Source: Candidatus Marinacidobacterales bacterium (GTDB lineage: Bacteria > Acidobacteriota > Vicinamibacteria > Marinacidobacterales > DATDRI01). From it: a DNA stretch of 64,000 nt. The stretch spans positions 3,616,001-3,680,000 of the forward strand of contig CBDCNP010000002.1 in NCBI GenBank assembly GCA_965219415.1, read 5' to 3'. Under the pieces are notes generated by a model. That model saw nothing but the letters and a program-made list of their open reading frames with translations, was not told where the DNA came from and made no database searches. Below are positions 6,757 to 53,583 of this stretch, piece after piece. The translations under genes and the position numbers were made by a program. How positions within the stretch are numbered: the first letter of the stretch is position 1; each line of letters opens with the position of its first letter.

Positions 6757-6759
6757 AGA

Positions 6760-10850: not shown

Positions 10851-10860
10851 ACTGTTGGTG

Positions 10861-11145
10861 CTACACGCAGAGGAGAGTGGTCGTGTGGGTGACGCCCTTC
10901 AACCCCCCGATGGTACCGGCAACGACACCCGAAATGTCCTTGAGCTCCCCGACCTCGAGGGAGACGACGATGTCGAAGGGGCCGGTGACGGGATCGACGC
11001 CCTTGACCGCAGCCATCTTTTCGAGCGCCCGGATCACCGCAGCCACTCGCCCCGGAAGGGTCTGGACCAAAACGAAGGCCCGCACCAGCTTCGCGGAACC
11101 CCGGGAGCGGGCTCTCGAGGATGGTCGTTTCTGCAAACCGCCCAT
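10861..11145 (-). CDS. Lrp/AsnC ligand-binding (RAM) domain protein, no HTH
   Basis: AFVLVQTLPG...VTGPFDIVV...GVTHTTTL; AGGAGG RBS before ATG 11145. Confidence 0.8.
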   Translation of the reverse strand: MGGLQKRPSSRARSRGSAKLVRAFVLVQTLPGRVAAVIRALEKMAAVKGVDPVTGPFDIVVSLEVGELKDISGVVAGTIGGLKGVTHTTTLLCV

Positions 11146-11349
11146 GCTCGACCTCCTAGGGGTGGGGCCTTGACTTTGACCGGAGCACTGGATCTGATAG
11201 TATAGACCTTGCGAGGTCAAACCAAACTCGCTTCCGGCCGTGCTGCCAACCGAGTCGGAATTGCCACCGCTACTGCGGAGGCCAGAAGATCCATTAGTTC
11301 CATTGACCCCTAGTGCCAGAAACTCTCCACGTGTACGTATGGTACAAGT

Positions 11350-13232: not shown

Positions 13233-13296
13233 GCTTCCCGCAATCTACTGCAGACTTCGCCCTTGTGTAAATGTCCCGCCGTCGCCCACCGTGTCG

Positions 13297-14071
13297 TCAC
13301 TTGGCTATGGCGGGCCCGCCGAAGCCATTAGTCGAAGTCGAATCGAGCGGAGGCGGGCGAAGCGTGCACACTGCGAGAAAGTAACGCGGCTCTCCGGAAA
13401 CGTCCGCGAGTCGGGTGGGTGTGGGTCCATCCGCCTCGTCGTAGAGTCGGCCCGCCCACCCGCCCCGCAGCACCTTGGCCCAGGCACGAGCCATGGCGTA
13501 GACGGGTAGCCACAGCCAAAGACGAGATACAAACCTCTGGCCCCATAGCTCCTTGATCTCGAACCACTCGGCCAACGCTAGCTCCGAGCTCGGCGAGTCG
13601 ATACTCGTGTGCGTGGTAGGGGTTCGCCGGACGACCGGTGAGCGGCCACCACGGGGAAGACACTTTGCGGTTGGGTGTCGAGACGATGAACGTCCCCCGG
13701 TCGGCGAGCACGCGTGCTACTTCTCGAAGGAGAGCGCGCGGCTCCGTCACGTGCTCGAGGGTCTCGAAGCAAACAACGCTCCCGAAGGCTCCACTCTCGA
13801 AGGGAAGTGACTCGGCGCGGGATCTGACGTAGTTGACCCTGGGGTGAGGGTATCGAGTACGGGCAGTCGATAGCGCGTCGAGAGAGAGATCCACGCCGAC
13901 GATCGATCGGTTTCCCGTCTCGGCCAAAATGGTCGCACCGTAACCGGTCCCGCAGGCAACGTCCAGAACCGGGCTGACTAACGATCGGCTCGACGCCGCG
14001 CGATAGCGAGCCAAGTGCTCGGCTACGATGTGCCCTGGAGTCTCTCCTGGGAGAACCCGGTCACAAGCCAT
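13297..14071 (-). CDS. Class I SAM-dependent methyltransferase (apparent frameshift ~13575)
   Basis: EHLARY, VLDVACGTGYG, FETLEH, STPN; the C-terminus appears to continue in ORF 13297-13575. Confidence 0.8.
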
Positions 14072-39127: not shown

Positions 39128-40146
39128 AAACGTACCGCATCCTTGCGCTCATGCACGAAGGTTTGGTTCCCCCCGACGATATTAGCGGCCACGACGTCGC
39201 CGCTGTCGAATGGAAGATGGAGTATGACGTCATCAGTACCTTGGAAGAGATCGGGCACGAGGTTCACCGACTGGGCGTGGGCAGTAATCTCGGCGCGATC
39301 CGAAAAGCGATCCACGATTTCAAGCCTCACATCGTCTTCAACCTATTGGAGGACTTCGACGATGTGGCTATCTACGACCAGAACGTGGTGAGCTACCTCG
39401 AGCTCATCAAGACGCCCTACACCGGCTGCAATCCGCGGGGCCTGATGTTGGCCCGGGACAAAGCGATCTCCAAGCAACTCCTTACGTACCACCGCGTCGC
39501 CGTTCCCGACTTCCATGTCTTCCGGCGAGGAAAGGGGGTCCGAAAACCGAAGCGGCTCTCTTTTCCTCTGATCGTCAAGTCTCTTATTTTGGAGGGCTCG
39601 GCGGGCATCTCCCAGGCTTCCGTGGTCGGAGATCAGGAGCGACTCAAAGAGAGGGTTCAGTTTATCCATGAAACCTTCGAAACCGATGCTATTGTGGAGC
39701 ACTACATCGACGGGCGAGAGTTTTACGTGGGCGTGATGGGCAACCAGCGCCTGCAGGTGCTTCCAGTGTGGGAGCTTCGTTTCACGAACCTGGCCGTTGA
39801 CGTGCGCCCCATCGCAACCGGCCGCGTGAAGTGGAACACCCGTTATCAGAAAAAGCATGGGGTGAGGACCGGGGCGGTGAAGGACCTGCCGGATGAGAAG
39901 CGAGCAGCGATACAACATCTGTGCAAACGGGTTTACCGGATACTGGGTCTCAACGGGTACGCGCGGCTCGATCTCAGACTCGACCAGAACGGAAAAGTCC
40001 ACGTCCTAGAGGCGAACCCGAACCCCCAACTAGCTTACGGCGAGGACTTCGCCGAATCGGCGGAAAAAGCCGGGATCAGCTACGAGGAGCTCATGCAGCG
40101 AATCATCACCCTAGGGCGGCGCTGGCAGCCGGAGCGATATCGATGA
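39124..40146 (+). CDS. Ddl-like ATP-grasp ligase
   Basis: VFNLLE, PYTG, DK, EHYIDGREF, YARLDLR, EANPNP; ATGA overlap with upstream gene. Confidence 0.88.
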   Translation: MKTYRILALMHEGLVPPDDISGHDVAAVEWKMEYDVISTLEEIGHEVHRLGVGSNLGAIRKAIHDFKPHIVFNLLEDFDDVAIYDQNVVSYLELIKTPYTGCNPRGLMLARDKAISKQLLTYHRVAVPDFHVFRRGKGVRKPKRLSFPLIVKSLILEGSAGISQASVVGDQERLKERVQFIHETFETDAIVEHYIDGREFYVGVMGNQRLQVLPVWELRFTNLAVDVRPIATGRVKWNTRYQKKHGVRTGAVKDLPDEKRAAIQHLCKRVYRILGLNGYARLDLRLDQNGKVHVLEANPNPQLAYGEDFAESAEKAGISYEELMQRIITLGRRWQPERYR

Positions 40147-42027
40147 CGATCCACATGCGTTCGATCCCATACCGCCTCGCCTTTTTCATTGCATTCACGT
40201 TTTCAACACTATTCTCCTGCGGCCCTTATGGGAGTAGCTGGGAAGATCATGCCGGCTGGGTGCGCTTTCATTACGACAAGCAGGAGTACATGGTGCCCAT
40301 GCGGGACGGCGTGGAGCTCTTCACCATCGTCTATACGCCCAATAACAAAAAGGAGGCGCTCCCGATCCTCCTCTACCGAACACCGTACTCCATTGCGCCG
40401 TACGGCTCGGACGAGTTCCGGGATGTACTCGGACCTTCCCCCGAGTTCGATCGAGATGGCTACATATTCGCCTTCCAGGACGTCCGCGGGAAGTTCAAGT
40501 CGGAGGGAGAGTTCGCGGTTATCCGGCCGCTGGCCCCGAAACCCAAAGGGGCGACCGACGTCGACGAGAGCACCGACAATTTCGACACCATCGAGTGGCT
40601 TTTGGCAAACGAGGCAATAACGGGCGCGTCGGACAATGGGGGATCTCCTACTCCGGTTGGCAGACACTCATGGGCATGGTCGATGCGCATCCGGCGCTCG
40701 CCGCTTCGTCCCGCAGGCTTCGCCCTCCGATATGTTCATCGGCGACGACTGGCACCATAACGGTGCCTTCCGCATCATGTACGCGTTCTCCTGGCTTTCC
40801 CGGAATGCCCGTCGACGGGACGCTCCCACCGAGGAGCGGGCCGGTCCCTTCGACTACGGCACACCATCTGGATACGATTTTTTCCTCGACGCCGGAGCGG
40901 CGGCGCGGATCGACGAGCTCTATTTTCACGGAGACGTGCTCGCATGGAACGACTTCATGGAGCACGGCAACTACGACTACTATTGGCAACGACAGAACGC
41001 TCTCCAGAATCTTCATGGAATCGACCACGCAACACTGAACGTCGCGGGGTGGTTTGATACCGAGGATTTCTACGGCCCGATGTCGATCTACCACACCATC
41101 GAGGAGAAAAACCCAGGAATCGAGAACACGCTGACTGCGGGTCCGTGGCTTCACGGCGGCTGGCGTAGCATGGAAGGGGATCACCTGGGGTGCGTCGAGT
41201 TTGATTCGAAGACCTCTTTGTACTTCCAGCGCGAAGTACAGTTTCCTTTCTTTCAGCACCATCTCAAGGAAAAAGGAGATTGGGAGGCGTTGGAGGCGGT
41301 GGTTTTCGAGACCGGCTCGAACGAGTGGAAGCGCTATGACAGCTGGCCGCCCGAAGACTCGGAGAACACCAAGCTCTATTTGCGGGCCGACGGAAAACTA
41401 TCCTTCGAGGCGCCGACCGGCTCCGACGCCGATTCTTACGTGAGCGATCCAAACAAACCAGTACCCTTCTCCGCCGAGATCCGAACCACGCTGGGCCATT
41501 TGTGGAAGGTGGAGGATCAACGATTCGCGTCAACGCGCCCGGATGTGCTGGTCTACGAGTCAGACGTTCTGGAAAAGGATCTCACCATCGCCGGTCCGAT
41601 CCTCGCGAACATTTTCGTATCGACCACCGGAACGGGATCCGATTGGATCGTCAAATTGATCGACGTCTATCCCGGCGATGCACCTGCCAGCACCTTCTGC
41701 GATATACCGATGGGCGGTTTCCAAATGCACCTCGCCGGGGAGATCATGCGGGGGCGGTTTCGAAACAGTCTCGAGGATCCGCAGCCGATGAAGCCTGGCG
41801 AAGTCACGCCGATTGTCATCGATCTTCGCGACCGCTATCACACCTTCAAGGCCGGGCACAGCATTATGGTCCACATTCAGAGCTCGTGGTTCCCGGCCTA
41901 CGACCGGAACCCTCAAATTTACGTAGACATTTACCGGGCCCAACCGGAGGACTACCAATCCGCGACCCAGACGGTTTATCGCTCGGCCCAGTACCCCTCT
42001 CACCTCGTTTTAGGAGTGCTGCCTTAA
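40143..42027 (+). CDS. CocE/NonD family hydrolase (two frameshifts ~40610 and ~40715)
   Basis: MRDGVELFT, RTPY, QDVRG, WGISYSG nucleophile motif, GDDWHHNGAF, GPWLHG split across three frames. Confidence 0.85.
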
Positions 42028-42032
42028 GGCAT

Positions 42033-42680
42033 TTACCTCCAACTGAGCGTGTCGAAACGTTCGCCGGCTTTCATGACTAGGTGAATCTTGTGCCACGCCC
42101 AGCGCTCTTCGAGCGGATTGGCCTGGAGTGATATCATGTCGGCGAGCTTGCCGGGCTCCAAGGTTCCGAGATCGTCACCTAAACCGATGTTTTGAGCGCC
42201 GACCGCGGTGCCGGCACGGATCGCATCCATCGGTGTGAAGCCGCCCTCGACCAAGAGCTCGATGGCGTTTCCAATGCCGCCGACGTAGAGCGGGTCCATC
42301 CCAAGACTAATAGGAACACCTGCCTCGAAGGCCGCCAGAACTTGGGTCTGTTGTGTCCGGATAGAAGGGGAGAAGTCGCGTCCCCGGCGGTTCTCGTCGA
42401 AGTCATCGTAGGGGCGATCTTCGGTCTCGACCTCCGGGTGAGCCTTTCGGTGCTCGAAATATTGTTTCTTTTCGAAATCGATCCAATCTCCCGGCCCGCG
42501 CGCACCGGTGTCCATGAACTCCCAAGTGGACTCGTCCGGTCGGAAGCCAACGTACACCAGCGGAGTGAAACAGACGGCGGTACCGCGCTCTAGCATCATG
42601 TCGATAATCTCCGGGGTCATGGGCCGGGCATGCTCGATGGTATCGACGCCGGCTAGAATGGCGGTCTTCATCGAACGGCC
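42033..42680 (-). pseudogene. Amidohydrolase family, C-terminal fragment
   Basis: AGVDTIEHA, GFTPMDAI, GTLEPGKLADM; N-terminal metal-binding part absent. Confidence 0.75.
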
Positions 42681-43038
42681 CCATCCCAACCTCACGAATG
42701 GGGACCGGCTGCCAGTGATCGCCGTGATGGGCTGCCACCTGGGCAATTACTGGTTGCCTGGCCATTCTTCACTCGCGGAAGACCTCGTGCTCCATCCCGA
42801 CGGTGGCGCGGCAGCGGTTTGGTCGCCTGCCGGGCTCTCCTACAATCCGCGACGACGGATCCTGGGGGAGGCCTATCTCCGCGCCGTCTATGAAGAGGGG
42901 GTCGATATTCTAGGCGACGCCGTCTTGCATGCCTTGTCCGTTGCCGCTACGAAACATGCAAGCGGACGGCGTGAGGTCCTGGAGACTCAGGTTCTCCTCG
43001 GCGACCCGGCGCTAAGACTGAAGAGCGCCCACCGATAA
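42681..43038 (+). pseudogene. Peptidase C25 (gingipain-like), C-terminal fragment
   Basis: LTNGDRLPVIAVMGCHLG...SLAEDLV...GGAAAV...LLGDPALRL. Confidence 0.75.
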
Positions 43039-43105
43039 CGGAAAGTTATGCGGCCATAATGACTCTTTCCAACAAACCACACATAGCAGCGGGAGAGCAG
43101 ATGGA

Positions 43106-43285
43106 ATGACGAAACCGGATAAGCCTTCCGAACCCCAACCAGAAGAGAATTCCGGCGAGCAGCGAGACAAGAAAAAGCCCTACCAGAGGCCACGGGTGAC
43201 TTTTCGGGAACCTCTCGAGGGTGTAGCCTCCATTTGTAATCCTCCCGGCAAAGGCGCCCCACCTTGCGAGTTCGCTTCTTCCTAA
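43106..43285 (+). CDS. Putative RiPP precursor peptide (59 aa; not in ORF track)
   Basis: GGAG RBS; MTKPDKPSEPQPEENSGEQRDKKKPYQRPRVTFREPLEGVASICNPPGKGAPPCEFASS; YxxP leader motif; 8 bp upstream of maturation genes. Confidence 0.8.
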   Translation: MTKPDKPSEPQPEENSGEQRDKKKPYQRPRVTFREPLEGVASICNPPGKGAPPCEFASS

Positions 43286-43293
43286 GCGAGACT

Positions 43294-43728
43294 ATGAGAG
43301 AGGAAGTCCTGTCCGCCCTCCGGGAATTGGGAATCGAGCAGCCTCTGCGCATCAGAGTTCGAGGTTTCTCGATGGCTCCCGATCTTCCGGACGGTGCGAC
43401 CGTCGAGATCTCACCTCGAATGATCTACTTGCCCGGGGACGTTATCGCTTTCGTGGCGCCTAATGGAGAGCTGAGGGTCCACCGCGTCCTCGGCTATCGA
43501 TGGCAGCTCTCCCACTGGCGCGTAGTTACCAAGGGGGATAACGCGAGCTGGATCGACCCCTCGGTGACGCCGGATCAAGTGCTAGGCCTCGTGCGAGGTG
43601 GCGACTGCGCACGCTCCATCTACGAGGTTCCTATCAGCCACCGTTTTCGAGCCGTCGGCCTCTTGCTCCGGAGGCTCGTCACATGGTGTGCCGCGATCCA
43701 TGGGCGAGAACATCATGAACTTCGGTAA
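43294..43728 (+). CDS. S24/S26 family (signal peptidase I-like) peptidase, soluble
   Basis: VRGFSMAP, GDVI, VHRV, TKGDN. Confidence 0.85.
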   Translation: MREEVLSALRELGIEQPLRIRVRGFSMAPDLPDGATVEISPRMIYLPGDVIAFVAPNGELRVHRVLGYRWQLSHWRVVTKGDNASWIDPSVTPDQVLGLVRGGDCARSIYEVPISHRFRAVGLLLRRLVTWCAAIHGREHHELR

Positions 43729-44656
43729 TCAGTTCCTGAGCTGCCCCGATCTGTTTCCCGCCCGTCTCGCCGGTGAACCTTGGGGGAAGCGGAGCGTGGC
43801 GATCGACTTCTTGGGAAAGCGGTACTTGGTCACGGGGCTCAACAAAGAACAAGCCGACGCAATTCATGCTCACTTCGGTCCCTACTGTCTGCCCGGCGAT
43901 TCCACAGTTTCACCCGAGGTAGAGATTCGGATTTATCGAGCGGACGAAGAAGACTTCAGAAGCTTCGATCTCCGTGGCTGGGACTACACCCTCGACATGG
44001 ACTACCGGGTTGACTCCGTCCGAGTGGCCGGACTCGATTTCATGGGACTTCTCGAGTGCCGCCACGATCTCGTCGCGGCTATTTGGACTTCGGCTCGAGA
44101 CGCGGACGGCTTCTGCGGAGTCTTCGAGAACTTCCTCCGCGTGACCGCCCAGTATCATTTGCTCAGGTCCGGTGGAGTTTTGCTACACAGTGCCGCCTTT
44201 GTCATAGAAGGCACTGCCTATGTCTTCCCCGGCCGCTCCGGGGCGGGCAAGTCGACAGTCTGCCATCTGGCCAAGATACAGGGATGGCGGATCTTGAGCG
44301 ATGAGCTCAACGCTGTCTCGATGCAAGAAGGTCGTGCACTCGTTCGGCAAGTGCCGTTCGCCGGCGACTTCGGGCGGACGAGTTGCTCGAGCAAGTCGTT
44401 TCCCTTAGCCGCCATCTTCAAACTGCGCCAGGCGGAGGACGACACCATCCAGCCGATCTCGCCATCGCAATCGCTCGGCTCGATGTTGTCGTGCGCGCCC
44501 TTCGTGAATCTCGACCCTCACCGATGTGAAACAGCCTCAACCGTGTTGGAGGAGATCGCCTCGGGCCACCCGGGCTTCACACTGAGTTTTTCCCTTGGGG
44601 GGAACTTGAGAGCACTCGAGAGATTCTGTTCTCGCTCGGAGGTACCGGCACTATGA
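43715..44656 (+). CDS. HPr kinase-related P-loop kinase (ScmC-like)
   Basis: LLHSAA, GRSGAGKST, LSDE, PFAG. Confidence 0.8.
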   Translation: MNFGNQFLSCPDLFPARLAGEPWGKRSVAIDFLGKRYLVTGLNKEQADAIHAHFGPYCLPGDSTVSPEVEIRIYRADEEDFRSFDLRGWDYTLDMDYRVDSVRVAGLDFMGLLECRHDLVAAIWTSARDADGFCGVFENFLRVTAQYHLLRSGGVLLHSAAFVIEGTAYVFPGRSGAGKSTVCHLAKIQGWRILSDELNAVSMQEGRALVRQVPFAGDFGRTSCSSKSFPLAAIFKLRQAEDDTIQPISPSQSLGSMLSCAPFVNLDPHRCETASTVLEEIASGHPGFTLSFSLGGNLRALERFCSRSEVPAL

Positions 44657-44934
44657 GCTACGCCTTGTGCAACGACGTCCGCTACCGGCTCCTCCTCAAC
44701 GAGGCTGTTGTCATTCGACAAGATGCAGCCAAAGTCCTCGGATTGAACCTTGTCGGAGCCCGAGTCCTAGAGCTGATCGACCAGGGGCATGGCCAGAGAG
44801 TGATCCTGACGTCACTCGCGGAGGAGTTCGATGTCGCTCCGCGGGAGCTCGAAGCAGATGTGAGTGCTTTCTTGCGAGAGCTCGTGGAGCTCGAGATTGT
44901 CGAGACTGTTCAAACCGCAACCGGAGCCAACTGA
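44653..44934 (+). CDS. PqqD family RiPP recognition element
   Basis: LNLVGARVLELID...LAEEFDV...DVSAFLRELVELEIV. Confidence 0.9.
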   Translation: MSYALCNDVRYRLLLNEAVVIRQDAAKVLGLNLVGARVLELIDQGHGQRVILTSLAEEFDVAPRELEADVSAFLRELVELEIVETVQTATGAN

Positions 44935-44935
44935 C

Positions 44936-45998
44936 ATGGGCTACCACGACGTGATGAAACGCATGGCCGATGAACACGCCCTCATGTCGGTGCTCTTGGA
45001 GCTCACTTACCGCTGCAATCTGGATTGCTTTTTCTGTTACAACGATCTCAACCTCGAGGGCGAACGCCTGTCAACCAACAACTATCTTCAGCTACTCGAA
45101 GACCTGCGCAACTTACAGGTGATGGTCCTCGTCCTATCCGGTGGGGAGCCTCTGACTAGTCCGGCGTTTTGGCCTCTCGGACGCAGGGCTAGAGAGTTGG
45201 GCTTCGTGACCCGCGTCAAATCGAACGGGCACGCCGTCGGAAAGGATGTCGCTCGCCGGCTCAAGAAAGAAGTAGACCCTTATGTCGTCGAGGTCAGCCT
45301 ACACGGCGCTTGCGCCGAGACCCATGACCGCCAGACTCGGGTCGAAGGAAGCTTCGACAAGCTGACCGCTAACCTAGAAGAGATGCGGCGGGCCGGCTTG
45401 CGGGTTAAGCTCAACAGCACGCTCACCCAATGGAACGAGAAACAGATCGCGGAGATGTTCGCCCTCGCGGACGACTTGGATATTCCGCTTTCCATGGACG
45501 CCGTGGTTACCCCGAGAGATGACGGTGATCGCGAGCCCCTCGCAATCGCAGCCTCGGCCGAAGGGGTGGCGCATCTCTATTCATTGCTGCGAGAGCGAAA
45601 AGGGCACCCTCCCCAGGAGATTCTTTCCGGTTGGCACGAGTGGACGGAAAAATTGCGGTACCGGCTCCGCGACGCTCGCGGTCGATCCCTTTGGAAACGT
45701 GTACCCGTGCATTCAGTGGCGCAGGCTGGTTGGGAATCTACACCGACATTCGATCGAGGAGATCTGGGGCGGATCCAAAGCGCTCGATGAGATCCGACGA
45801 TTGAACACAGACGCGGGGCGATTGGTAGACAGCTTGGGTCCCGCGGGCCAAGACATGGGATTCTGTCTCGGGCTGGCGGAAGAGCTGACCGGCGATCCTC
45901 TCGCTCTTTGTCCCCAGGCCGAGCGAAACCTGGGTGTCCTGCGAGAGCTACAGACGAAAACCGAGACGATACGGCTGCCTATTTACGGGCAGGACTGA
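44936..45998 (+). CDS. Radical SAM/SPASM-type peptide maturase (frameshift ~45600-45650)
   Basis: ELTYRCNLDCFFCYN, SGGEP, VSLHG; second frame CGTG...VDPFGNVYPC...VGNL...IW. Confidence 0.88.
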
Positions 45999-47626
45999 TT
46001 GTCTTCGGGTCTCGATCGAGCCCGACAACAACTCCCACAATAACACTGAGAAGGGCGGCGTTCGCGGGCAAATGAAGACTTGAAATCGGTAAAACTATGA
46101 AGCGCGATTGCCAACGCCGCAGAGCAATATCCGGCGTGTAAATAGCGTGCGGCACGGTCACCGAGTAGCCTTTGTCGAGTGCGCCAAGCCGCCTTCCAAA
46201 CGCAGGCTACGAGCCACAAGAAAAGTAGTAGCCCGGGCACACCCAACTCTATGAGGAGCTGCAAATAGTCGTTGTGGGCGTGGGTGTAGGAGACAGCCCC
46301 TCCAAAGCTTCGGTAGATGGGGAAGACCTGGCCGAATGTCCCTAAACCCGATCCGGTAAGCCAAAAATCACTGGTCGCCTGCACGCTGTCCGACCACACT
46401 CGCTGACGCCCCACTTCCTCGTTCCAAAGCTCGGAGACCGCGTCGAAACGCTGAGCCAGGATACCCATTCCAAACCAAATCATGATTCCGGCGACGACGA
46501 AAGAGATTGCTCGAAGGCTTCGCGCCGCGTAGCGCGCCCGTTCGCCAGCACGAACTTCGATCGGCCCTGCTCCTGGTGATCGTGAGCCAACCAGTACGGT
46601 GAAAAGTGCAAGGGCGGCTACCGCAGCGATGATCCCCGACCGGGAGAGCGAAAAGAGGAGTCCCAGGCCAATCACGATAAGTCCGAAGCCTACGATGACG
46701 AACTTGGCTCGCGACTCTTGCCGGACGACATCGGCTAGGCGCGAGAAGCCGGTTCTTTGTGCGTCACTGGTGTCGACACGAGCCATCCTGGCCCCGATCC
46801 AACCGGCGCTGCAGAGCAAGAGCATCTCCATGCTGGCAGCGTAATGGTTGGGGTTGCCGAACGTCCCGCGAGCTCGGAGTCCCACATCCGATGGATCGGC
46901 GCCGAGCAGTTCCTGCAATCCAACAAGCCACTGAGTGATCCCGTACAGGCCAGCCGCGACGCCCACTATCAGGAGCATCGACGAGAGGCGGTCAACGGAG
47001 CGGCGATTCGAAGCCAAGCAAACACCAACGTAGAAAAGAGCGAGGTAGGCCACCCAAAGGCAAAGTCCGCGCTCGATTAGAAAGCTAGACAGTGTTATGG
47101 GTGCTTCGATCGAAGCTTCTTCGTCGAGCATGAGGCCTTGAGCTGCCATCCGGATCTCGCTCGCCCGTGGGGATAGCCGAAGCATCCAACCTTCACGCAG
47201 TGGTAGTAAGGACGCTCCCATCCAAACGGTGAGCAGCAAGAGGGGCATTCCCAAGCCGGCTCGCTTGAATTCGTATCCGGCAAAGAAGAAGGAATCTGGG
47301 CGCCTCTCGGTACGGCCCGGAAGCAGAATCTCGACTCCCGCTACACTTCCTCGCGCAGGAAAGAGGCCTAGACTCAACAGACGGCTGACGGTGGCTAGGT
47401 GCGGATACCGAACGGCGAAAGGCAATTTCCGCGAGGCACGCCGCTGCTCCAAGTTGCGCGCCCTTTCTTCCGGGTTGGTACACCACAAGACACGCAAGAG
47501 AACCCACGACAAGAGACAACCCGCCCCGAGCTCGAGGAGGAGGGTCGCCCACGGCGAGTAGCCTCCCCATCCCAGGGTCACGCAAACCAGCAATAGCACG
47601 ATGGCGTAAGGAAGGTGACGGGGCAT
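45979..47626 (-). CDS. O-antigen ligase family protein (frameshift ~46075)
   Basis: GTFGNPNH, SRSG, GSGLGTF, HAHNDYLQ, HSFTDF continuing as SLHLPANA in another frame. Confidence 0.85.
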
Positions 47627-47633
47627 TTGCTTG

Positions 47634-48833
47634 TTACGAACCTTCTGCGGATGGCTTGTTCAGAAGCAGGAGTTGTCTAAGCTCTCGATCGGCTTGTGAA
47701 TGTCGTGGGTTTAGCCGCAGGACTTCCCGGTAGGACTCAATCGAGGCTCGCCGGTTCCCGGTCTTGCGGTACGCACGGGCCAAGCCAAGCCGTATGTCGG
47801 GATCGTGCGGAGCAGCTTCGGTGGCCTTCAGCAAAAGGCTCTCTGCCATGACCGCCTGCTCCGCCTTCAGATACTGGTAGCCCATGCCTCTCAAAAGCCC
47901 CACGCTAGCCGAAGACGATACGCCGGCATGCCGCTCCACCTTCCTTAGTGCTTCGCTGAAGGCCTCATAAGCTCGCTCCGGCTGACCTAGCTCGAGGTGG
48001 GCCCTCGCGATCACCAAAGCAGCACGAGCAAAATGTGTCCCCACACGCCCCGAGCGATCTTCCTGCTCGAGCCACTCTTGTCCCGTTCGAAGCGCGATAG
48101 CGGGCGCGTTCCACTCGAAGGCCCATCGTGCCGCGTCGAAGAAAAGTTCCCTCTCCGAGGCTGATTCGAGAACCTCGGCGAGAACGTTCAGAGCCTCGGT
48201 TCTGTGCCCCGACCCGGCGAGGGCTAGTGCCAGCTCTTTTCTTGCCGGAACGGTCTCAGGCGTCAAGTCGCGCCACCTGTCCGCTGGCACGCCACTCCAG
48301 GCGACGAGCTTCAACGAGCTGGGGACGAGGTCGGGCTCGAGCTTCATCGCCAACGCCAGGTGACCCAGGCCGCGACGGTGAGCATCGCCGGACTGATCCG
48401 AACTCTGCGACGCAACCTTCCTTATTCGAAGCGGTTCGAGCCTAGGTGTAAGCAACCATTGCGCATACGTGAAACGAAGACGTCCATTCGTGGGAGAAAG
48501 CTCGATGGCCACTTCGAAGGCCCGCTCGCTCAGCTCGCGTTCTTCCAGTCGATTCGCTAGAAAAGCTGCAAGTAGAAATGGCGACTGATAGGAGGCGGGA
48601 GCCTCTTTCAACGATTGGCGAAGATAGGGTCGAATGCGGCTCGAGAAGTCCTTGGACTCGATGGCGTGACGAGTGAGGCCTAACGTTGCTTCTGGATGTC
48701 GCAGCCGCAGGTTCGCCCCGAGATCGATCTCACTGGGAGATCGCGCCCACCTCTCTTGCTCATAGAAGAAAAACGAGGCCCCAGCATAGGCGCCAGCGAC
48801 GACGGCAAGGATGCTAGTCAGCACAAACCGCAT
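47634..48833 (-). CDS. Membrane-anchored TPR protein
   Basis: N-terminal TM followed by TPR-like helical repeats. Confidence 0.7.
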   Translation of the reverse strand: MRFVLTSILAVVAGAYAGASFFFYEQERWARSPSEIDLGANLRLRHPEATLGLTRHAIESKDFSSRIRPYLRQSLKEAPASYQSPFLLAAFLANRLEERELSERAFEVAIELSPTNGRLRFTYAQWLLTPRLEPLRIRKVASQSSDQSGDAHRRGLGHLALAMKLEPDLVPSSLKLVAWSGVPADRWRDLTPETVPARKELALALAGSGHRTEALNVLAEVLESASERELFFDAARWAFEWNAPAIALRTGQEWLEQEDRSGRVGTHFARAALVIARAHLELGQPERAYEAFSEALRKVERHAGVSSSASVGLLRGMGYQYLKAEQAVMAESLLLKATEAAPHDPDIRLGLARAYRKTGNRRASIESYREVLRLNPRHSQADRELRQLLLLNKPSAEGS

Positions 48834-48855
48834 GGTGTTGCAGAAAGAATGGAGT

Positions 48856-49590
48856 CTATTTCCCTACCACCAGCGAACGCCTCACCTTGGACACGGAGTC
48901 GGCCCGCGACTCGCCAAAGGGCGCTGACACGAGGCGGGCTTCGGGGAGCACGTCACTCAACACGAGCCGGATCGCCCCACCCTTCTCCTCGAACGAGTAC
49001 TGCTCCAAGCGGCGAAGGGCGGACTGCACCATGTCTTCGGAGTAAGGCCCCATCTTGCCGATACGGATCTTGGGGTGTCGGGTCATGGAGACCGACTCGC
49101 TGTTGAGCTGCAGTTCTTCGTGGAGTTTCTCCCCCGGGCGAAGGCCGGTAAAAACGATTTCCACATCCTCGAACGGCTTGAGACCCGAAAGCAGGTCATG
49201 TCGCGCGCGAGATCCAGAATGCGCACCGACTCGCCCATGTCGAGAATGTATATTTCACCCCCTTCTCCCATGGCACCCGCCTGGAGAACTAGTTGGGCCG
49301 CTTCCGGAATCGTCATGAAATAGCGCCTCACCTGGGGATGGGTGACGGTCACCGGTTCACCCCGCGCGATCTGTTCTCGAAAAATGGGGATAACGGATCC
49401 GGCCGAGCCCATGACGTTTCCGAACCGAACTGCAACGTAACGAGTCGGAAAGCGACGCCCGAGATCCTGCACGATCAGTTCCGCCATCCTCTTCGAGGCT
49501 CCCATGATGGAAGTCGGTCGGACCGCCTTGTCGGTAGAAACGAGTACAAACGTACTCACCCCGAGCTCACCGGCCAGCACCTCGAGGGAC
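48856..49590 (-). pseudogene. CapD/PglF-like nucleotide-sugar dehydratase, C-terminal fragment
   Basis: [46 protein letters not shown]; frameshift ~49195; N-terminus missing. Confidence 0.85.
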
Positions 49591-50104
49591 GGTACGAACT
49601 TCGTGCCAATCTTCACGCTGTCCGCTGATCGCTTTCAGGCTCGAAACGGTGGAGCTGTTTCCGAAGTTGAAGTGAGAAGCACCTTTCTTCTGACTAACCG
49701 CGAGCGGGTTCAACACGACGTTGCGGAAATGATTGAGCTCGATATTCTCCTTCAGCCTCGTGAGATTATCTGGGTGAAGGCTCAAAGGCGTGCACCCGCC
49801 CTTTTTCTCCCACCAGTTGCGCTAATAGCAACGTGTAAAGCCCATGGTGGGCGCCGACGTCCAGTACAACGTCGCCCGGTGCAACCCACTCTCTGAGGCG
49901 TCTTCTCGCGTCTAACTCGTGGCGGAGCAGGAGCTGAAAGTCTCCGCCCTCTCGAGGATAGAGAGCGAAACGAAAAGGGCATCCGAGCTCGCGGTGGGTC
50001 ACCACCCACCGCCTTGGAAGCAGGTGTAGAGCCTTGCGCATGACGACTTTGGGAACGACTGATTTGATCGCACGATGCACATATGGACCGAGATGGTTGT
50101 TCAT
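49585..50104 (-). pseudogene. FkbM family methyltransferase, truncated
   Basis: VLDVGAHHG, HAFEP, frameshift ~49785, abuts the CapD fragment and lacks the KIDVEG motif. Confidence 0.75.
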
Positions 50105-51329
50105 GGAGTGGGCCCCCAGGCGCGACCGGCTGAGGCGGGCGCTCCATCCTGCATGAGAATGGGAGCGCGTTCTTTCGTGTTGGATCGTCTGGGTGGCGCC
50201 GATACCCGCATCCGCCTCGCGCTCAATGCGATGACCAGGAAGGGCAGGGCTCCGTTCTTGAGAAAGAAGAACACGACGTTGTCTGAATCGGACACGAGAA
50301 GAACGAAACTCAGGTTGATCAGGACGGGGTAGAGGAGAAAACGCGCGTCTTCTGGCCGTAGGGTGGTCAGCATGTGCCGCACCCTCTGAACGAAGCACCC
50401 AAGAATCGCGAAGGCGAGGGCCGCCGCAAGCGGACCGAAGTTGAGCATCGCCTCCCCGGCAAGGCCGTAAACGCGAGATGATTGCAACTTTCCCGGAACG
50501 TACGAGCCGGCCCCGTACTGAGCCTCTGTCCCTTCCTTGACTTTCGTTGGGGGACGGCTCGCCAGAGCGCCCGCGGCACGACCAGTGCCGCCGCCCCTAA
50601 GTAGGTCCGCCCCATTCCGAAACGATAGTCGTCGGGGTATAACAACAACCGATAAAGGAGGAATGCCTGGACATCGCTCCGCGCCAAGTCGCTGAGGATG
50701 GTGGCCTCCAATGTCCGACCCGTCTAACCCGCCAGTGCGGTAACACCTTCGCTCGTTTTGAAGGCCTCCAAGGCTTCTACACCAAGAGCCTTATAGAAGC
50801 CGTAGAGGTACATGAAGGAGATCAGAAAAACGATGCCTACCAGGATCACCTTCTTCGGTACCTGTCTCACCCAGAAGTGAATGATGCCGACTGCCCAGAA
50901 GAGGCCCCATATGGTGTTGCTCCGGCTTCCACGGAGTCCTCCGAAAAACAGCTTGAACGATAGATAGACCAGCAACACCCCAATGATTACGCTCCAGGAA
51001 TACCCGACCCGGCGATGGTGCGCATAGACCGCGAAACCCATGAGCGCGATGATCGGGAAACTTTCGGAGATCATGAACACCCATCCCATTCCCTGGAACC
51101 CCTCGGACTCCGTATAGGCGGTCATGTAACCCAGCACGCCGCACATCCATACCGGAAGGACGAACCAATGGACGAAACGACCGGAAGACGCAATGGTCAA
51201 GATCAGAACAAGACAGCACAAGTAGCAAGCCAAGAAGAAACTACCAGTCGAAATGTGGGTATACGCGTCAGCGGGCAGTCTTCTGGTGGGTTTCCCGAGA
51301 GTAGATGGCCCTGGTGCGTGCTCAGACAC
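50101..51329 (-). pseudogene. Wzy-like polysaccharide polymerase, fragmented
   Basis: Hydrophobic segments, GGLRGSRSN, GEAMLNFG; split in three ORFs with probable internal deletion. Confidence 0.6.
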
Positions 51330-51916
51330 GATAGATCGACTCCATATGTTTGACGCTCTCCTCTATGTTGAACGAACTGTTTTCCACCAGAGCAAGTGCC
51401 TCACGTCCCATCAACTCCGGACGCGTATCACGCGCGGCGAGGATCGCGTCTGCCCACACTGGTGCCGGGGAGGTGAGCGGCAGCCGTCGCAACAGGGGCC
51501 CCACGACATCCGCTTCTGGCGGGACGACATCCGCTATCACACAGGGCAATCCGGCTGCTTGAGCTTCCACGAGCGCCAACCCCAAGCCTTCCCACAACGA
51601 GGGGAAAAAGAACACGTCTGTTGCACCTACCATCAGGCGAGGAACATCGGTTCTGGTTCCCGCGAAGACGAATCTGTCCGCCATCTTGAGTTTGTCCACT
51701 TTTCGTTCGATGATTGGTCGCAGTTTGCCGTCCCCAACGAGCAGGAATCGAGCGTTAACGTCGCGGCGGGCGATTTCGCGAGCAACTTCTATCCATAAGT
51801 GATGGTTCTTCTGTTCCGTAAAGTTCCCCACATGCCCCACCACGAAGGCGTCGGCGGGGATTCCAAGCTCGGCTCGCACAGAGGACTTGTCAATACGCGA
51901 GCGAAAAGGGGACAGG
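51322..51916 (-). pseudogene. GT4 glycosyltransferase, 5'-truncated by IS256
   Basis: GHVGNF..QKNH, FPSLWEGLGLALVEAQAAG; the frame stays open up to the IS end. Confidence 0.85.
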
Positions 51917-52420
51917 GAGTCAAGCCCATTCTTAGTTGAAACTCTCCACGGCTCACGTTTAAGCGACCTTCTTCTTCGATACGGTTGATGTCTTCGCCTC
52001 GATCTTCAGTTCCCGCTTGAGAGCTTCGCGAAGCTTGGGAAGATGGCGGTAGCCCACCACCTTCCTCAAGCGCGGTTCGATGTCTACGAGCGCCGTTGCC
52101 AACCAGCGCCGTTGCCAACCAGCGCTGGCGTTGGCTCGAGTTCTTCCAGTGGTCGACCTTCGCGCAGCGTTCCTCGACGAGAGCATTGACGGACTCAAGG
52201 CAGTTCGTCGTCTTGAACGAACGGCCCAGCACCGCGTGCACGCCGAGTCGATGCAACGTCAGCGTCTCCTCGAGGCCTTCCTCCAGGCTGCCAGCTGCGG
52301 ATTGGTTCCGCTCTTCTAACTCACCGTGGAGTTGCTCGAGCGCAGTGAGGGCCTCTTCGTACTCCTGGACTTGACCCGCTTTCGTGGACACCTAATCCTT
52401 ATGGGAGACAGGAGTCCACG

Positions 52421-52735
52421 ATGTCAAAGCAGGGAAACAGATACGCGGCCGAGTTCCGGCGCCAAATGGTAGAGCTGGTGCGAGCGGGCCGCGGCTCCGA
52501 AGAGCTGGCGCGAGAGTTTGAGCCCTCGGGCCAGACGATCCGGAACTGGGTGAACCAGGCGGATCTCGACGAGGGTCGCAGGCAGGACGGTCTGACGAGT
52601 GAGGAGCGTGCGGAGCTCCGCCGCCTGCGACGGGAGAACCGTCAACTACGGTTGGAGCGGGAGATCCTCTCAAAAGCCGCGGCCTGGTTCGCTCGGGAGA
52701 CCGAGTCGGTACCACCGAAGCCTTCCGATTCGTGA
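52421..52735 (+). CDS. IS3 transposase OrfA
   Basis: HTH, then leucine zipper ELRRLRRENRQLRLEREILSKAAAWF. Confidence 0.9.
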   Translation: MSKQGNRYAAEFRRQMVELVRAGRGSEELAREFEPSGQTIRNWVNQADLDEGRRQDGLTSEERAELRRLRRENRQLRLEREILSKAAAWFARETESVPPKPSDS

Positions 52736-53583
52736 GGGCGAACCAGGATTCACTACCGGTTGCCACGATGTGCCGACTGCTGGACGTCTCCGCCAGCGGC
52801 TACTATGCGTGGCTTGAGCGTGCCCCGTCGGCCCGCGCGGTGTCGGATGCGGAGTTGCTTGAGAAGATCCGGGCGATTCACACCGCGTCGCGGAGCACGT
52901 ACGGCGCGCCGAGGATCCTCCACGAGCTACGAGAGACACACGAGCTCCACGTCTCACGCAAGCGTGTAGCGCGGCTGATGCGCGAGGCTGACATTCAAGG
53001 TGTTCACCGGCGCAAGAGGGCGCACACTACGATTCGCTGTGACGACGCCCGTCCCGCCCCCGATCTCGTCGACAGGAATTTCGAGGTGGACCGGCCCGAC
53101 CGCCTGTGGGTCGCCGATATCACCTACGTGCCTACGTGGTCGGGCTTCTTGTTCCTCGCCGTCGTGCTGGACGCCTTCAGCCGACGCATCGTCGGATGGG
53201 CAATGGCTACCCACCTGCGGACGTCGCTCGTCTTGAGCGCCCTCGACATGGCGCTGTTCCAACGCAAGCCCGGCGACGTCACCCATCACTCGGACCAGGG
53301 CACGCAGTACACGTCACTAGCGTTCGGCCAGCGATGCCGGGAGGCCGGGGTGCGACCGTCGATGGGTTCGGTCGGGGACTGTTACGACAATGCGATGTGC
53401 GAGAGCTTCTTCGCGACGCTCGAGTGCGAGCTGATCGAGCGCCGGTCGTTTCGCTACCACGCTGAGGCGCGCATGGCGACCTTCGATTTCATCGAAGGCT
53501 GGTACAACCCGCGACGACGACACTCCGCCATCGACTATTGCTCGCCTATCCAATTCGAAAGGAGGTACTATCGCGACGCTTGA
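52732..53583 (+). CDS. IS3 transposase OrfB (DDE)
   Basis: WVADITY, HHSDQGTQY, DNAMCESFF; GTGA overlap with OrfA. Confidence 0.93.
   Translation: MRANQDSLPVATMCRLLDVSASGYYAWLERAPSARAVSDAELLEKIRAIHTASRSTYGAPRILHELRETHELHVSRKRVARLMREADIQGVHRRKRAHTTIRCDDARPAPDLVDRNFEVDRPDRLWVADITYVPTWSGFLFLAVVLDAFSRRIVGWAMATHLRTSLVLSALDMALFQRKPGDVTHHSDQGTQYTSLAFGQRCREAGVRPSMGSVGDCYDNAMCESFFATLECELIERRSFRYHAEARMATFDFIEGWYNPRRRHSAIDYCSPIQFERRYYRDA

What the first reader, a model, noticed from the sequence alone, without database searches (positions are those of the whole stretch)
43106..45998. Candidate uncharacterised RiPP system: hidden precursor + S26 peptidase + HPrK-like kinase + PqqD + radical SAM/SPASM
Seen: a tightly packed five-gene plus-strand operon (gaps under 10 bp or overlaps). 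The first gene is a 59-aa ORF absent from the track, with a charged leader containing KKPYQRPRV and a C-terminal segment SICNPPGKGAPPCEFASS. Known: YxxP(xL) is the RRE/PqqD docking motif of lasso-type leaders; rSAM/SPASM enzymes with an RRE crosslink peptides; HPrK-like kinases in paeninodin-type lasso clusters phosphorylate a C-terminal Ser; the gene set resembles the uncharacterised TIGRFAM SynChlorMet cassette. Inference: a RiPP made without a lasso cyclase, in which the rSAM modifies the core, the kinase phosphorylates it and a soluble signal-peptidase-like enzyme removes the leader. I know of no characterised product with this enzyme set.
Basis: partly seen in the sequence, partly recalled or inferred. 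Interest (0 to 1): 0.9.

Follow-up and report, generated by a model that had tools for sequence, protein, structure and literature searches.

The report
Degraded copy of novel RiPP cassette
A small, conserved peptide gene sits beside a peptide-binding chaperone, a radical SAM enzyme, a kinase and a peptidase, a gene set that is widespread in this bacterial phylum and apparently uncharacterised, although the copy in this genome is partly broken.

Summary
A 59-aa ORF (43106-43285) leads a tightly packed plus-strand set: an S24/S26-like peptidase, an HPrK-like kinase, PqqD, and a radical SAM gene split by a +1 frameshift.

The small ORF is a real gene. It has 44 representative homologues of 53-79 aa, and dN/dS against a sister species is 0.145. 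The family shares a Y-x-x-P-x-[ILV] leader motif, two Cys flanking a Lys, and a C-terminal Ser.

Across 32 loci the peptide gene lies beside:
- the rSAM in 29
- the kinase in 27
- PqqD in 27
- the peptidase in 9

Gene order varies between lineages.

- In 17 of 32 loci the peptide gene directly abuts a giant PorU-like Peptidase_C25 surface protein. Here only its last ~118 codons survive.
- The window copy is a 6.9-kb island between rearrangements, and independent contigs carry the same rSAM frameshift.
- The "SPASM" part keeps only three conserved Cys, so it is twitch-like.

No curated family cut-off is met, and no published description was found. My verdict is an uncharacterised RRE-dependent rSAM/kinase RiPP family. 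This copy is probably inactive.

The parts
42684..43038 (+). 3' remnant (about 118 codons; ORF 42508-43038) of a giant PorU/gingipain-like Peptidase_C25 gene. It keeps the catalytic-Cys region but lacks the His region and everything upstream.
   Evidence: Pfam Peptidase_C25 gives E 7.5e-18 over model positions 255-374 of 374. Synteny with the sister species starts exactly at 42684. The own genome holds no orthologue of the missing ~2400 aa, only 30-31% identical paralogues. A Logan contig of run X6 bridges 42000-44657 with no differences.
43106..43285 (+). Precursor peptide gene, 59 aa. It has a variable charged N-terminus, a conserved leader (Y-x-x-P-x-[ILV], then EPLE, then small-x-Ala), and a core with Cys...Gly-Lys...Cys ending in Ser-Ser.
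   Evidence: dN/dS is 0.145 against the sister species. No Pfam or NCBIfam family matches it.
43294..43728 (+). Soluble S24/S26-clan (Sec11/SipW-type) peptidase-like protein of 144 aa (154 aa from the TTG at 43264). The nucleophile Ser lies in G-F-S-M-A-P and an invariant His in H-R-V-L-G.
   Evidence: TIGR02228 gives E 5.1e-08 (32.9 bits, cut-off 51.85). All 8 family members match Peptidase_S24 below its cut-off. The family profile hits SpsB 4wvh at E 1.2e-4 and SEC11A 7p2p at 6.4e-4, with Ser/Cys on the nucleophile and His on the general-base Lys. The AF2 model has pLDDT 84.2 and its best Foldseek hit is 7p2q_A (human signal peptidase complex) at E 1.3e-4, TM 0.50.
43715..44656 (+). HPrK-like (PEPCK-fold P-loop) kinase of 313 aa, with His158, Lys179 (Walker A) and Asp196-Glu197.
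   Evidence: TIGR04352 gives E 1.7e-11 (43.7 bits, cut-off 200) and TIGR04249 ScmC gives 2.7e-10 (40.1 bits, cut-off 125). The AF2 model has pLDDT 85.6. Foldseek hits PEPCK at E 3e-8 and HPrK/P at 1.6e-5 to 6.5e-4.
44653..44934 (+). PqqD-family RiPP recognition element of 93 aa.
   Evidence: Pfam PqqD gives E 1.5e-12, 48.1 bits, above its cut-off. The nearest NCBIfam models are lasso PqqD chaperones, all below cut-off. The complex prediction with the peptide gives weak support.
44936..45790 (+). Radical SAM domain with CxxxCxxC. Homology to the intact gene is followed to 45598, and the frame breaks near 45621. After the break this frame runs on out of register to a stop at 45790.
   Evidence: Pfam Radical_SAM gives E 7.4e-17. 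tblastn against the intact sister gene is. The DNA alignment shows one extra base.
45603..45998 (+). C-terminal auxiliary-cluster domain of the same rSAM, read in the +1 frame (ORF 45519-45998). It is a truncated SPASM (twitch-like) domain with 3 conserved Cys.
   Evidence: Pfam SPASM gives E 2.9e-08 over model positions 1-52 of 67. Among 26 family members the conserved Cys are only CxxxCxxC plus 3 more. The frameshift is present in a 9287-nt contig of run X1 and a 9052-nt contig of run X4, with 0 gaps.
45983..48833 (-). Convergent neighbours inside the syntenic island: a Wzy_C (O-antigen-ligase-like) membrane protein at 45983-47626 and a TPR protein at 47634-48833. Whether they belong to the system is uncertain.
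   Evidence: Pfam results are. They are syntenic with the sister species. A fused Wzy_C-TPR protein lies beside the cassette in one distant genome (L049), but in no other of the 32 loci at a convincing score.

Best explanation
This is a copy of an uncharacterised RiPP pathway that depends on a leader-binding RRE.

Proposed mechanism in intact relatives:
1. The 53-79 aa precursor is bound through its Y-x-x-P-x-[ILV] leader strand by the PqqD-like RRE. This is inferred from homology plus a weak complex prediction.
2. The RRE presents the precursor to a radical SAM enzyme with a truncated, three-Cys auxiliary-cluster domain. That enzyme modifies the short Pro/Gly-rich core, most likely by cross-linking at the near-invariant Cys...Lys...Cys residues, for example through a thioether. 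This step is inferred.
3. The HPrK-like kinase phosphorylates the conserved C-terminal Ser, as its lasso-peptide relatives do. This is inferred by analogy.
4. A soluble Sec11/SipW-type peptidase, where present, cuts after the invariant Ala of a small-x-Ala motif two residues before the first Cys. This is inferred.

Functional partner: in most lineages sampled the peptide gene directly abuts, on the same strand, a giant secreted protein with a PorU-like C25 cysteine-peptidase domain. The product is therefore probably that protein's partner, either as a constrained Lys-loop inhibitor or as a substrate/acceptor, rather than a free-standing antibiotic.

State of the window copy: the rSAM carries a real +1 frameshift, and the C25 gene and the far-side CapD-like gene are truncated by rearrangements next to IS elements. 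This copy is therefore most likely recently inactivated.
For: The precursor is a real, conserved gene:
- 9 close homologues.
- 44 representatives at E<=1e-3, all 53-79 aa.
- In those 44 representatives plus the window's own peptide (45 sequences), the leader motif is in 45 of 45, a C-terminal Ser in 44 of 45, exactly two Cys after the motif in 42 of 45, and a Lys between the Cys in 43 of 44.
- dN/dS is 0.145.

Linkage:
- The peptide was found in 14 of 61 related genomes and 85 of 401 genomes of the phylum sample.
- In 32 loci centred on the peptide, the rSAM is present in 29, the kinase in 27, PqqD in 27, C25 in 17 and the peptidase in 9. Gene order and strand differ between lineages.
- At least 60 of the 85 genomes have a listed kinase hit within 20 kb on the same contig, and 43 of 98 peptide hits have one within 3 kb.

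Enzymes:
- The kinase's His, Lys and Asp-Asp/Glu residues match the His-Lys-Asp-Asp motif. PadeK, ThcoK and PsmK phosphorylate the C-terminal Ser of precursors (PMC9266682, passages read).
- The peptidase has an S24/S26 fold, and its nucleophile varies between Ser (3 of 8) and Cys (5 of 8) beside an invariant His.
- Ala at -3 from the first Cys is invariant, and the residue at -5 is small in 41 of 45.

RRE-peptide complex:
- Score 0.51 against 0.00 for the best of 3 controls.
- That mark was reached by 58 of 80 solved complexes and 2 of 110 mismatched pairs. At 0.60 or under it was reached by only 7 of those 80 and by both passing mismatches.
- The runs agree in at least 93% of contacts, and partner pLDDT is at least 56.
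- My own alignments were used, so these counts hold only roughly.
- RRE-leader complexes are solved, so the pass may only reflect likeness to them.

C25 partner:
- Pfam C25 scores 190-275 bits.
- The best solved match is PorU 6za2 at E 4.9e-17, with the His and Cys aligned.
- NCBIfam T9SS_sortase gives E 1.4e-63.
- N-terminal hydrophobic signal-like segments are present.

Degradation of the window copy.
Against: - No chemistry was measured. The rSAM reaction, the phosphorylation and the cleavage site all rest on analogy.
- The complex prediction is only weak support.
- The peptidase is absent from 23 of 32 loci. Family-f2 genomes carry a homologue elsewhere in the genome rather than in the cassette, so its role as leader peptidase is not secure.
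- C25 is absent from 15 of 32 loci. All 9 family-f2 loci instead sit in an exopolysaccharide locus beside a PF14907 nucleotidyltransferase.
- The peptide has no signal peptide and no transporter is conserved, whereas the C25 proteins look secreted. Where the two would meet is unexplained.
- All curated kinase, PqqD-system and rSAM family cut-offs are missed.
- dN/dS of the window genes (0.14-0.31) is like that of their neighbours (0.21-0.23), so sequence decay beyond the frameshift is not visible.
- Many loci come from related genomes and are not independent.
Confidence: 0.7

Rival explanations
1. The modified peptide is a dedicated inhibitor or safety catch of the adjacent C25 cysteine peptidase. 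A cross-linked loop would present the conserved Lys as a P1 residue, as in co-encoded protease inhibitors. This concerns function and is compatible with the biosynthetic reading.
For: The peptide gene abuts the C25 gene on the same strand in 17 of 17 loci that have one. One genome has two C25-peptide pairs in tandem (L046). A Lys lies between the two Cys in 43 of 44. The C25 His/Cys dyad is kept. From recall, not checked here: staphostatins are encoded directly downstream of staphopains, and some RiPPs (microviridins) are protease inhibitors.
Against: C25 specificity is unknown. 15 of 32 loci lack a C25 gene. The C25 proteins carry signal-like N-termini while the peptide does not. No inhibition data exist.
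Confidence: 0.2
2. The cassette makes a peptide-derived small-molecule redox cofactor in the manner of PQQ or mycofactocin, rather than a peptide product.
For: The rSAM's best NCBIfam matches are NirJ, AhbD, the mycofactocin maturase and PqqE (E 1e-33 to 1e-25, all below cut-off). A PqqD chaperone, a small precursor and a peptidase are all present.
Against: Core length and sequence vary: the Cys-Cys loop is 8-24 residues and the tail 5-8, which is unlike the fixed reacting residues of cofactor precursors. A kinase aimed at a C-terminal Ser has no place in those pathways. No dehydrogenase or oxidase partner recurs among the 32 loci.
Confidence: 0.05
3. It is an atypical lasso-peptide cluster of the phosphorylated paeninodin type.
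For: The leader motif, the PqqD's best matches (lasso B1 chaperones) and the kinase type are all shared with such clusters.
Against: No Transglut_core3 (B2) match above cut-off exists anywhere in the genome. The only Asn_synthase gene is on another contig. No such family recurs in the 32 loci. An rSAM takes the place of the cyclase.
Confidence: 0.02
4. The rSAM break is not a defect: either an assembly error or a programmed +1 frameshift, so the window copy is active.
For: The cassette genes still show purifying selection. The break lies in a variable linker.
Against: Contigs from runs of two studies, one differing from the window by a SNP, carry the same base count over 42655-46500. The sister species and most other loci have one uninterrupted ORF. 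The flanking C25 and CapD-like genes are also truncated. One of those runs may be the window's own source.
Confidence: 0.1

Closest known systems
Phosphorylated lasso peptides (paeninodin PadeK, ThcoK; pseudomycoidin PsmK/PsmN)
   Same: Both have an HPrK-like kinase with the His-Lys-Asp-Asp motif, a separate PqqD-type RRE, a Y-x-x-P-type leader motif and a strictly conserved C-terminal Ser in the precursor. In family-f2 loci a PF14907 nucleotidyltransferase sits beside the kinase, as PsmN does.
   Different: There is no lasso cyclase and no B2 protease. An rSAM is the core-modifying enzyme. The core has two Cys and a Lys rather than a Gly/Asp-Glu ring pair.
Haft's in-silico rSAM systems: SynChlorMet cassette (ScmC/D/E/F), HPr-rel-A system, GeoRSP
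   Same: The same parts list: an HPrK-related protein, a PqqD relative and an rSAM/SPASM.
   Different: All models score far below their cut-offs:
- ScmC 40.1 bits against 125
- ScmD 22.7 against 100
- ScmE 62.6 against 400
- ScmF 66.7 against 400
- HprK_rel_A 43.7 against 200
- PqqD_rel_X 23.4 against 35
- GeoRSP_rSAM 57.8 against 400

There is one rSAM here, not two. What these systems comprise is recalled, since no paper on them was found in the library.
Sactipeptide/ranthipeptide and other RRE-dependent rSAM-SPASM maturases (AlbA, StsB, PapB, SkfB)
   Same: An rSAM with a C-terminal auxiliary-cluster domain acts with an RRE on a Cys-containing core. StsB, PapB, AlbA and SkfB models give E 1e-28 to 1e-12.
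   Different: The RRE is a separate protein. Only 3 auxiliary Cys are conserved instead of 7. A kinase, an S26-like peptidase and a C25 partner are present.
PorU, the C25-family sortase of type IX secretion
   Same: The adjacent giant proteins' C25 domain is closest to PorU (PDB 6za2 at E 4.9e-17; NCBIfam T9SS_sortase at E 1.4e-63), with the His and Cys aligned.
   Different: The score is below the family cut-off (215 bits against 420). The domain is fused to DUF11 or PKD repeat arrays. A search for the T9SS C-terminal sorting domain in this genome found nothing, but its control did not ring either.
Sec11/SipW-type (Ser-His) signal peptidases
   Same: The fold, the nucleophile motif, a His in place of the bacterial general-base Lys, and a substrate with a small-x-Ala site.
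   Different: It has no membrane anchor. The nucleophile is Cys in 5 of 8 relatives. Scores are below the family cut-offs.

Membership tests
RRE-dependent RiPP pathway (generic) | A PqqD-like RRE domain is present | tested here: met
   Pfam PqqD scores 48.1 bits against a cut-off of 23.4.
RRE-dependent RiPP pathway (generic) | A short precursor with a conserved leader and a variable-flank core is encoded beside the enzymes in many genomes | tested here: met
   
RRE-dependent RiPP pathway (generic) | The RRE binds the leader | tested here: inconclusive
   The complex prediction gives weak support only: 0.51 against 0.00 for the best of 3 controls. The mark was reached by 58 of 80 solved complexes and 2 of 110 mismatches, but at 0.60 or under by only 7 of those 80 and by both passing mismatches. 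No binding was measured.
RRE-dependent RiPP pathway (generic) | An intact core-modifying enzyme | tested here: not met
   In the window the rSAM is split by a +1 frameshift. It is intact in the sister species and in most other loci.
SynChlorMet cassette | ScmC, ScmD, ScmE and ScmF models reach their curated cut-offs | tested here: not met
   Scores are 40.1 against 125, 22.7 against 100, 62.6 against 400 and 66.7 against 400.
HPr-rel-A system | TIGR04352 kinase and TIGR04353 PqqD reach their curated cut-offs | tested here: not met
   Scores are 43.7 against 200 and 23.4 against 35.
Lasso peptide cluster | An Asn-synthetase-like cyclase and a transglutaminase-like B2 protease lie nearby | tested here: not met
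   Neither family recurs in the 32 loci.
Lasso-type precursor kinases (PadeK/ThcoK) | A His-Lys-Asp-Asp catalytic motif, and a C-terminal Ser in the substrate | tested here: met
   His158, Lys179 and Asp196 are invariant in 8 of 8. The fourth position is Glu in this genus and Asp elsewhere. A C-terminal Ser is present in 44 of 45. The motif is taken from PMC9266682. Activity was not tested.
SPASM domain | Seven-Cys motif for two auxiliary clusters | tested here: not met
   Only 3 Cys beyond CxxxCxxC are conserved (at least 0.92) in 26 family members. The Pfam SPASM match covers model positions 1-52 of 67. The seven-Cys definition is recalled.
Peptidase S26 (signal peptidase I) | The family HMM cut-off is reached | tested here: not met
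   TIGR02228 scores 32.9 against 51.85, and Peptidase_S24 17.6 against 23.3.
Peptidase S26 (signal peptidase I) | S24/S26 fold with the nucleophile and general base in place | tested here: met
   The best Foldseek hit is 7p2q_A at E 1.3e-4, TM 0.50, followed by LexA and SpsB.
Peptidase S26 (signal peptidase I) | A membrane anchor | tested here: not met
   The sequence and model show no N-terminal hydrophobic helix. There is one long C-terminal amphipathic helix, residues 114-143. This was judged by eye; no TM predictor was run.
Peptidase C25 / PorU | A complete C25 domain with the His/Cys dyad | tested here: not met
   In the window only model positions 255-374 remain. The sister species' protein has the complete domain at 274.7 bits, with the dyad aligned. 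The PorU model scores 215 against a cut-off of 420.

The most novel reading that the evidence does not exclude
The cassette may build a small adaptor for protein sorting.

Proposed sequence of events:
1. The peptide is cross-linked by the rSAM.
2. It is trimmed by the S26-like peptidase to expose a new amine.
3. It is phosphorylated on its C-terminal Ser. In some lineages the phospho-Ser would be extended by the PF14907 enzyme or an O-antigen-ligase-like protein.
4. The PorU-like C25 domain of the adjacent giant surface protein uses the peptide as the acceptor in a sortase-like transpeptidation.

The result would tie surface adhesins to a glycan or envelope anchor in bacteria that lack type IX secretion. 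This would be a RiPP that works as a covalent linker rather than as a toxin, signal or cofactor.
Probability: 0.1. Interest if true: 0.9.

Novelty: new variant of a known kind. Interest (0 to 1): 0.75.

Why it matters
If the reading is right, it has four consequences:
- It defines a RiPP family present in roughly a fifth of the sampled genomes of a whole phylum (85 of 401). No curated model names its precursor, and I could find no published product for it.
- It would be the first case of the lasso-type C-terminal-Ser kinase working with a radical SAM enzyme instead of a lasso cyclase.
- It would be the first case of a soluble Sec11-like peptidase acting as a RiPP leader peptidase.
- It would be the first RiPP tied gene-for-gene to PorU-like C25 proteins.

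The family alignment gives precise residues to mutate: Tyr and Pro of the leader, the Ala cleavage site, two Cys, one Lys and the terminal Ser. The intact sister-species cassette gives a working template.

The window's own copy, together with an IS21-disrupted copy and a third apparently frameshifted copy elsewhere, shows that the rSAM gene is repeatedly lost.

Tried and rejected
Leads that went nowhere or were rejected:
- **Promoter and terminator scan of 42400-46300.** It found 0 promoter-like sites and 4 terminator-like sites against 3.4 expected, which is uninformative.
- **Expression.** No RNA holder was listed for the stretch, so nothing can be said about expression.
- **T9SS C-terminal sorting domain (TIGR04183) in the own genome.** There was no match, but the control genomes did not ring either, so the result is inconclusive.
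- **PF14907 nucleotidyltransferase.** It is present twice in the own genome but far from the cassette. The only other kinase-like hit is weak and on another contig.
- **Exopolysaccharide context.** It holds for the 9 family-f2 loci. tblastn with those Wzc, PF14907 and porin proteins found nothing in the 20 phylum loci, so it is lineage-specific.
- **Wzy_C/TPR neighbours.** They recur only in the own genus and one distant locus, plus one hit at E 1.2e-4, so they were not counted as part of the system.
- **Clusters 3 and 15.** These are antisense shadow ORFs inside the rSAM and C25 genes and were ignored.
- **My first C25-remnant dN/dS row.** It was out of frame and is discarded.
- **The search for related loci on genome contigs with the kinase alignment.** It returned only 16 distant loci because its patterns were generic. 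These were not analysed further, beyond noting Acidobacteriota, Planctomycetota, Nitrospira, Desulfobacterales and Paenibacillus titles.
- **Phylum of the window.** It was not established.
- **Literature.** Six searches and term look-ups in two RRE papers found no description of this enzyme set or precursor. The library lacks most subscription journals, and supplements were closed, so a mention in a genome-mining supplement cannot be excluded.
- **Papers seen.** For PMC9266682 and bioRxiv 10.1101/467670 I read passages. For PMC7470986 and PMC12710340 I made term counts only. All others were seen as search listings or abstract starts. Zhu et al. 2016 (PMC4919450) is not held.

Full report
**1. 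Observation**

- A 59-aa ORF runs 43106-43285 on the plus strand, preceded by a purine-rich GGGAGAG 8 nt upstream.
- Four further genes follow with gaps of 8 and 1 nt and overlaps of 14 and 4 nt.

Family scans give:
- an S24/S26-type peptidase (TIGR02228 E 5.1e-08; Peptidase_S24 E 0.003)
- an HPrK-related kinase (TIGR04352 E 1.7e-11; ScmC E 2.7e-10)
- a PqqD domain above its Pfam cut-off
- a Radical_SAM domain
- a SPASM match, in a separate overlapping ORF

The rSAM is split. Against the intact gene of a same-genus genome (G001, locus L019), the window has one extra base near 45621, in a variable linker.

**2. The small ORF is a gene**

- A word-indexed search found 9 other proteins of 58-59 aa at 64-73% identity.
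- An exhaustive phmmer search of 1.84 billion representatives found 44 at E<=1e-3, all 53-79 aa.

Their alignment shows the following layout:
- a variable, charged N-terminus
- a conserved block with Y/W-x-x-P-x-[ILV] (45 of 45) and an EPLE-like turn
- an invariant Ala three residues before the first Cys, with a small residue two positions earlier (41 of 45)
- a Pro/Gly-rich core with exactly two Cys (42 of 45)
- a Lys between the two Cys (43 of 44), in a loop of 8-24 residues (mode 10)
- a tail of 5-8 residues ending in Ser (44 of 45)

Between the window and G001 the ORF has dN/dS 0.145. Neither Pfam nor NCBIfam has a model for it.

**3. Linkage to the enzymes**

The peptide model matched 14 of 61 related genomes and 85 of 401 genomes sampled across the phylum. 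The kinase model matched 202 of 401.

I fetched 11 loci from relatives and 20 from the phylum sample. The 20 were picked from the better-scoring peptide hits, not at random.

Counts from tblastn, an HMM of the peptide and all-against-all clustering over these 31 loci plus the window:

| Component | Loci of 32 |
|---|---|
| rSAM | 29 |
| Kinase | 27 |
| PqqD | 27 |
| Peptidase_C25 protein | 17 |
| S24/S26-like peptidase | 9 |

- Three of the loci that lack parts end at a contig edge (L021, L064, L065). One (L063) has the peptide alone.
- Gene order differs between lineages. The arrangements seen are peptide first (own genus, f34), peptide last on the same strand (f36), and peptide convergent after the rSAM (f2, f23, f48, f81).
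- The association therefore survives rearrangement.

From the coordinate lists:
- 43 of 98 peptide hits lie within 3 kb of a listed kinase hit.
- 63 of 98 lie within 20 kb.
- 60 of 85 genomes have such a pair.
- This is a lower bound, because only 150 of 370 kinase matches were listed and many assemblies are fragmented.
- These tallies include the unpublished genome G209.
- Related genomes are not independent, so I give counts and no test.

**4. The enzymes**

*Kinase.*
- It keeps His158, the Walker-A Lys179 and Asp196 (invariant in 8 of 8). The next residue is Glu here and Asp elsewhere.
- The lasso-tailoring kinases share a His-Lys-Asp-Asp motif and phosphorylate the C-terminal Ser of the linear precursor. 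PsmN, a nucleotidyltransferase-like protein, then adds hexose (PMC9266682, passages read).
- Its AF2 model (pLDDT 85.6) matches PEP carboxykinases (E about 3e-8) and HPrK/P (E 1.6e-5 and weaker).

*Peptidase.*
- The family profile aligns to S. aureus SpsB (E 1.2e-4) and human SEC11A (6.4e-4).
- The nucleophile is Ser in 3 of 8 and Cys in 5 of 8. An invariant His sits where SpsB has its general-base Lys.
- The model (pLDDT 84.2) is closest to 7p2q_A, a chain of the human signal peptidase complex (E 1.3e-4, TM 0.50), then LexA and lambda repressor.
- This is the Sec11/SipW-type arrangement, without a membrane anchor.
- The small-x-Ala motif before the core is what such an enzyme would cut. That is inference.

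*rSAM.* In 26 family members, only CxxxCxxC and three further Cys are conserved. The auxiliary domain is therefore a truncated SPASM (twitch-like) domain.

*RRE-peptide complex.* The prediction of PqqD with residues 18-59 of the peptide gave weak support:
- The score was 0.51 against 0.00 for the best of 3 controls.
- That mark was reached by 58 of 80 solved complexes and 2 of 110 mismatches. At 0.60 or under it was reached by only 7 of those 80 and by both passing mismatches.
- The runs agree in at least 93% of contacts, and partner pLDDT is at least 56.
- I used my own alignments, and solved RRE-leader complexes exist, so the pass may only reflect likeness to them.

**5.

- In 17 of 32 loci, from nine families, the peptide gene lies directly next to the gene of a 1200-2800 aa protein, on the same strand. 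The peptide gene is either downstream or upstream of it.
- One genome has two such pairs in tandem (L046).
- These proteins carry a Peptidase_C25 domain (190-275 bits) with DUF11 or PKD/FN3 repeats.
- The closest solved relative is PorU (6za2, E 4.9e-17), ahead of gingipain R, with the catalytic His and Cys aligned.
- NCBIfam's T9SS sortase PorU model gives E 1.4e-63 but stays below its cut-off (215 bits against 420).
- Their N-termini have hydrophobic, signal-like segments (by eye).
- In family f2 there is no C25 gene nearby. The cassette instead lies in an exopolysaccharide locus, after a Wzc-like tyrosine autokinase and a PF14907 nucleotidyltransferase, and before a beta-barrel porin and glycosyltransferases.

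**6. State of the window copy**

- DNA similarity to G001 (89.8%) runs only from 42684 to 49586.
- Upstream, only the last ~118 codons of the C25 gene remain, joined to a fragment of an amidohydrolase gene on the other strand.
- The own genome has no orthologue of the missing ~2400 residues.
- Downstream, the CapD-like gene is cut, and transposase and integrase genes follow.

Logan contigs bear on two points:
- One contig of run X1 (study P1) and one of run X4 (study P2, with one SNP) cover 42655-46500 without gaps. The extra base in the rSAM is therefore not peculiar to this assembly.
- A contig of X6 bridges 42000-44657, so the junction is real.
- In X1 and X4 the graph branches at 42655-42684. 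This suggests that the upstream segment also exists in a second context.
- One of these runs may be the window's source.

dN/dS of the cassette genes (0.14-0.31) resembles that of the neighbours (0.21-0.23), so any inactivation is recent.

The rSAM is also interrupted by an IS21-family element in G014 and appears frameshifted in G042. The G042 case is unverified, and that genome is 74% complete.

**7. Comparison and verdict**

- The system works like an RRE-dependent rSAM RiPP pathway with the tailoring kinase of phosphorylated lasso peptides.
- It is not a lasso cluster.
- It meets none of the curated cut-offs of the SynChlorMet, HPr-rel-A or GeoRSP families.
- Six literature searches and two term look-ups found no description. 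Subscription journals and supplements were out of reach.
- I rate it a new variant of a known kind. The family is of real interest; this particular copy is a probably inactive remnant.

Noticed in passing
window 54722-61054 (- strand): This is an rRNA operon (5S, 23S, two tRNAs, 16S). The 23S match spans 3952 nt against a 2925-position model. An ORF inside it (56255-56743, - strand, 162 aa) is a LAGLIDADG endonuclease (E 4.8e-26). The 23S gene therefore seems to carry an intron-like insertion with a homing endonuclease.
   Followed up: partly
window 49586-54530: Just beyond the end of synteny with the sister species lie Mutator-family transposase fragments (51789-52391 and 53622-54530, - strand) and an IS3-type integrase (52732-53583, + strand). 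The CapD-like Polysacc_synt_2 gene (48856-49616, - strand) is cut short. This IS-rich stretch probably caused the rearrangement.
   Followed up: partly
window 39921-42027: An S15 X-Pro dipeptidyl-peptidase gene appears split between two overlapping ORFs (39921-40760 and 40636-42027), suggesting another frameshift. The N-terminal ORF was not scanned.
   Followed up: no
window 42033-42746 (- strand) and 42655-42684: An amidohydrolase C-terminal fragment abuts the C25 remnant. In contigs of runs X1 and X4 the assembly graph branches at this 30-nt stretch. The upstream piece has about twice the depth of the cassette piece, as if that segment exists in two contexts.
   Followed up: partly
L024 (G014) 4189-7172; L028 (G042) about 6827-6831: The rSAM of the homologous cassette is interrupted by an IS21-family element (IstB plus a Mu-transposase-like protein) in G014, and looks frameshifted in G042. 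Counting the window, that makes 3 of 29 rSAM-bearing loci disrupted.
   Followed up: partly
L046 (G065) 3404-14049: Two tandem pairs of a giant C25 protein gene followed by a peptide gene share one rSAM/kinase/PqqD set. The two peptides differ mainly in their N-terminal parts.
   Followed up: no
families f47, f87, f19 and f53 of the phylum sample: A group of weaker peptide hits that match only the leader part of the model lie a regular 10-17 kb from a kinase hit. This may be a larger cluster architecture, or a different RRE-dependent peptide class that shares the leader motif.
   Followed up: no
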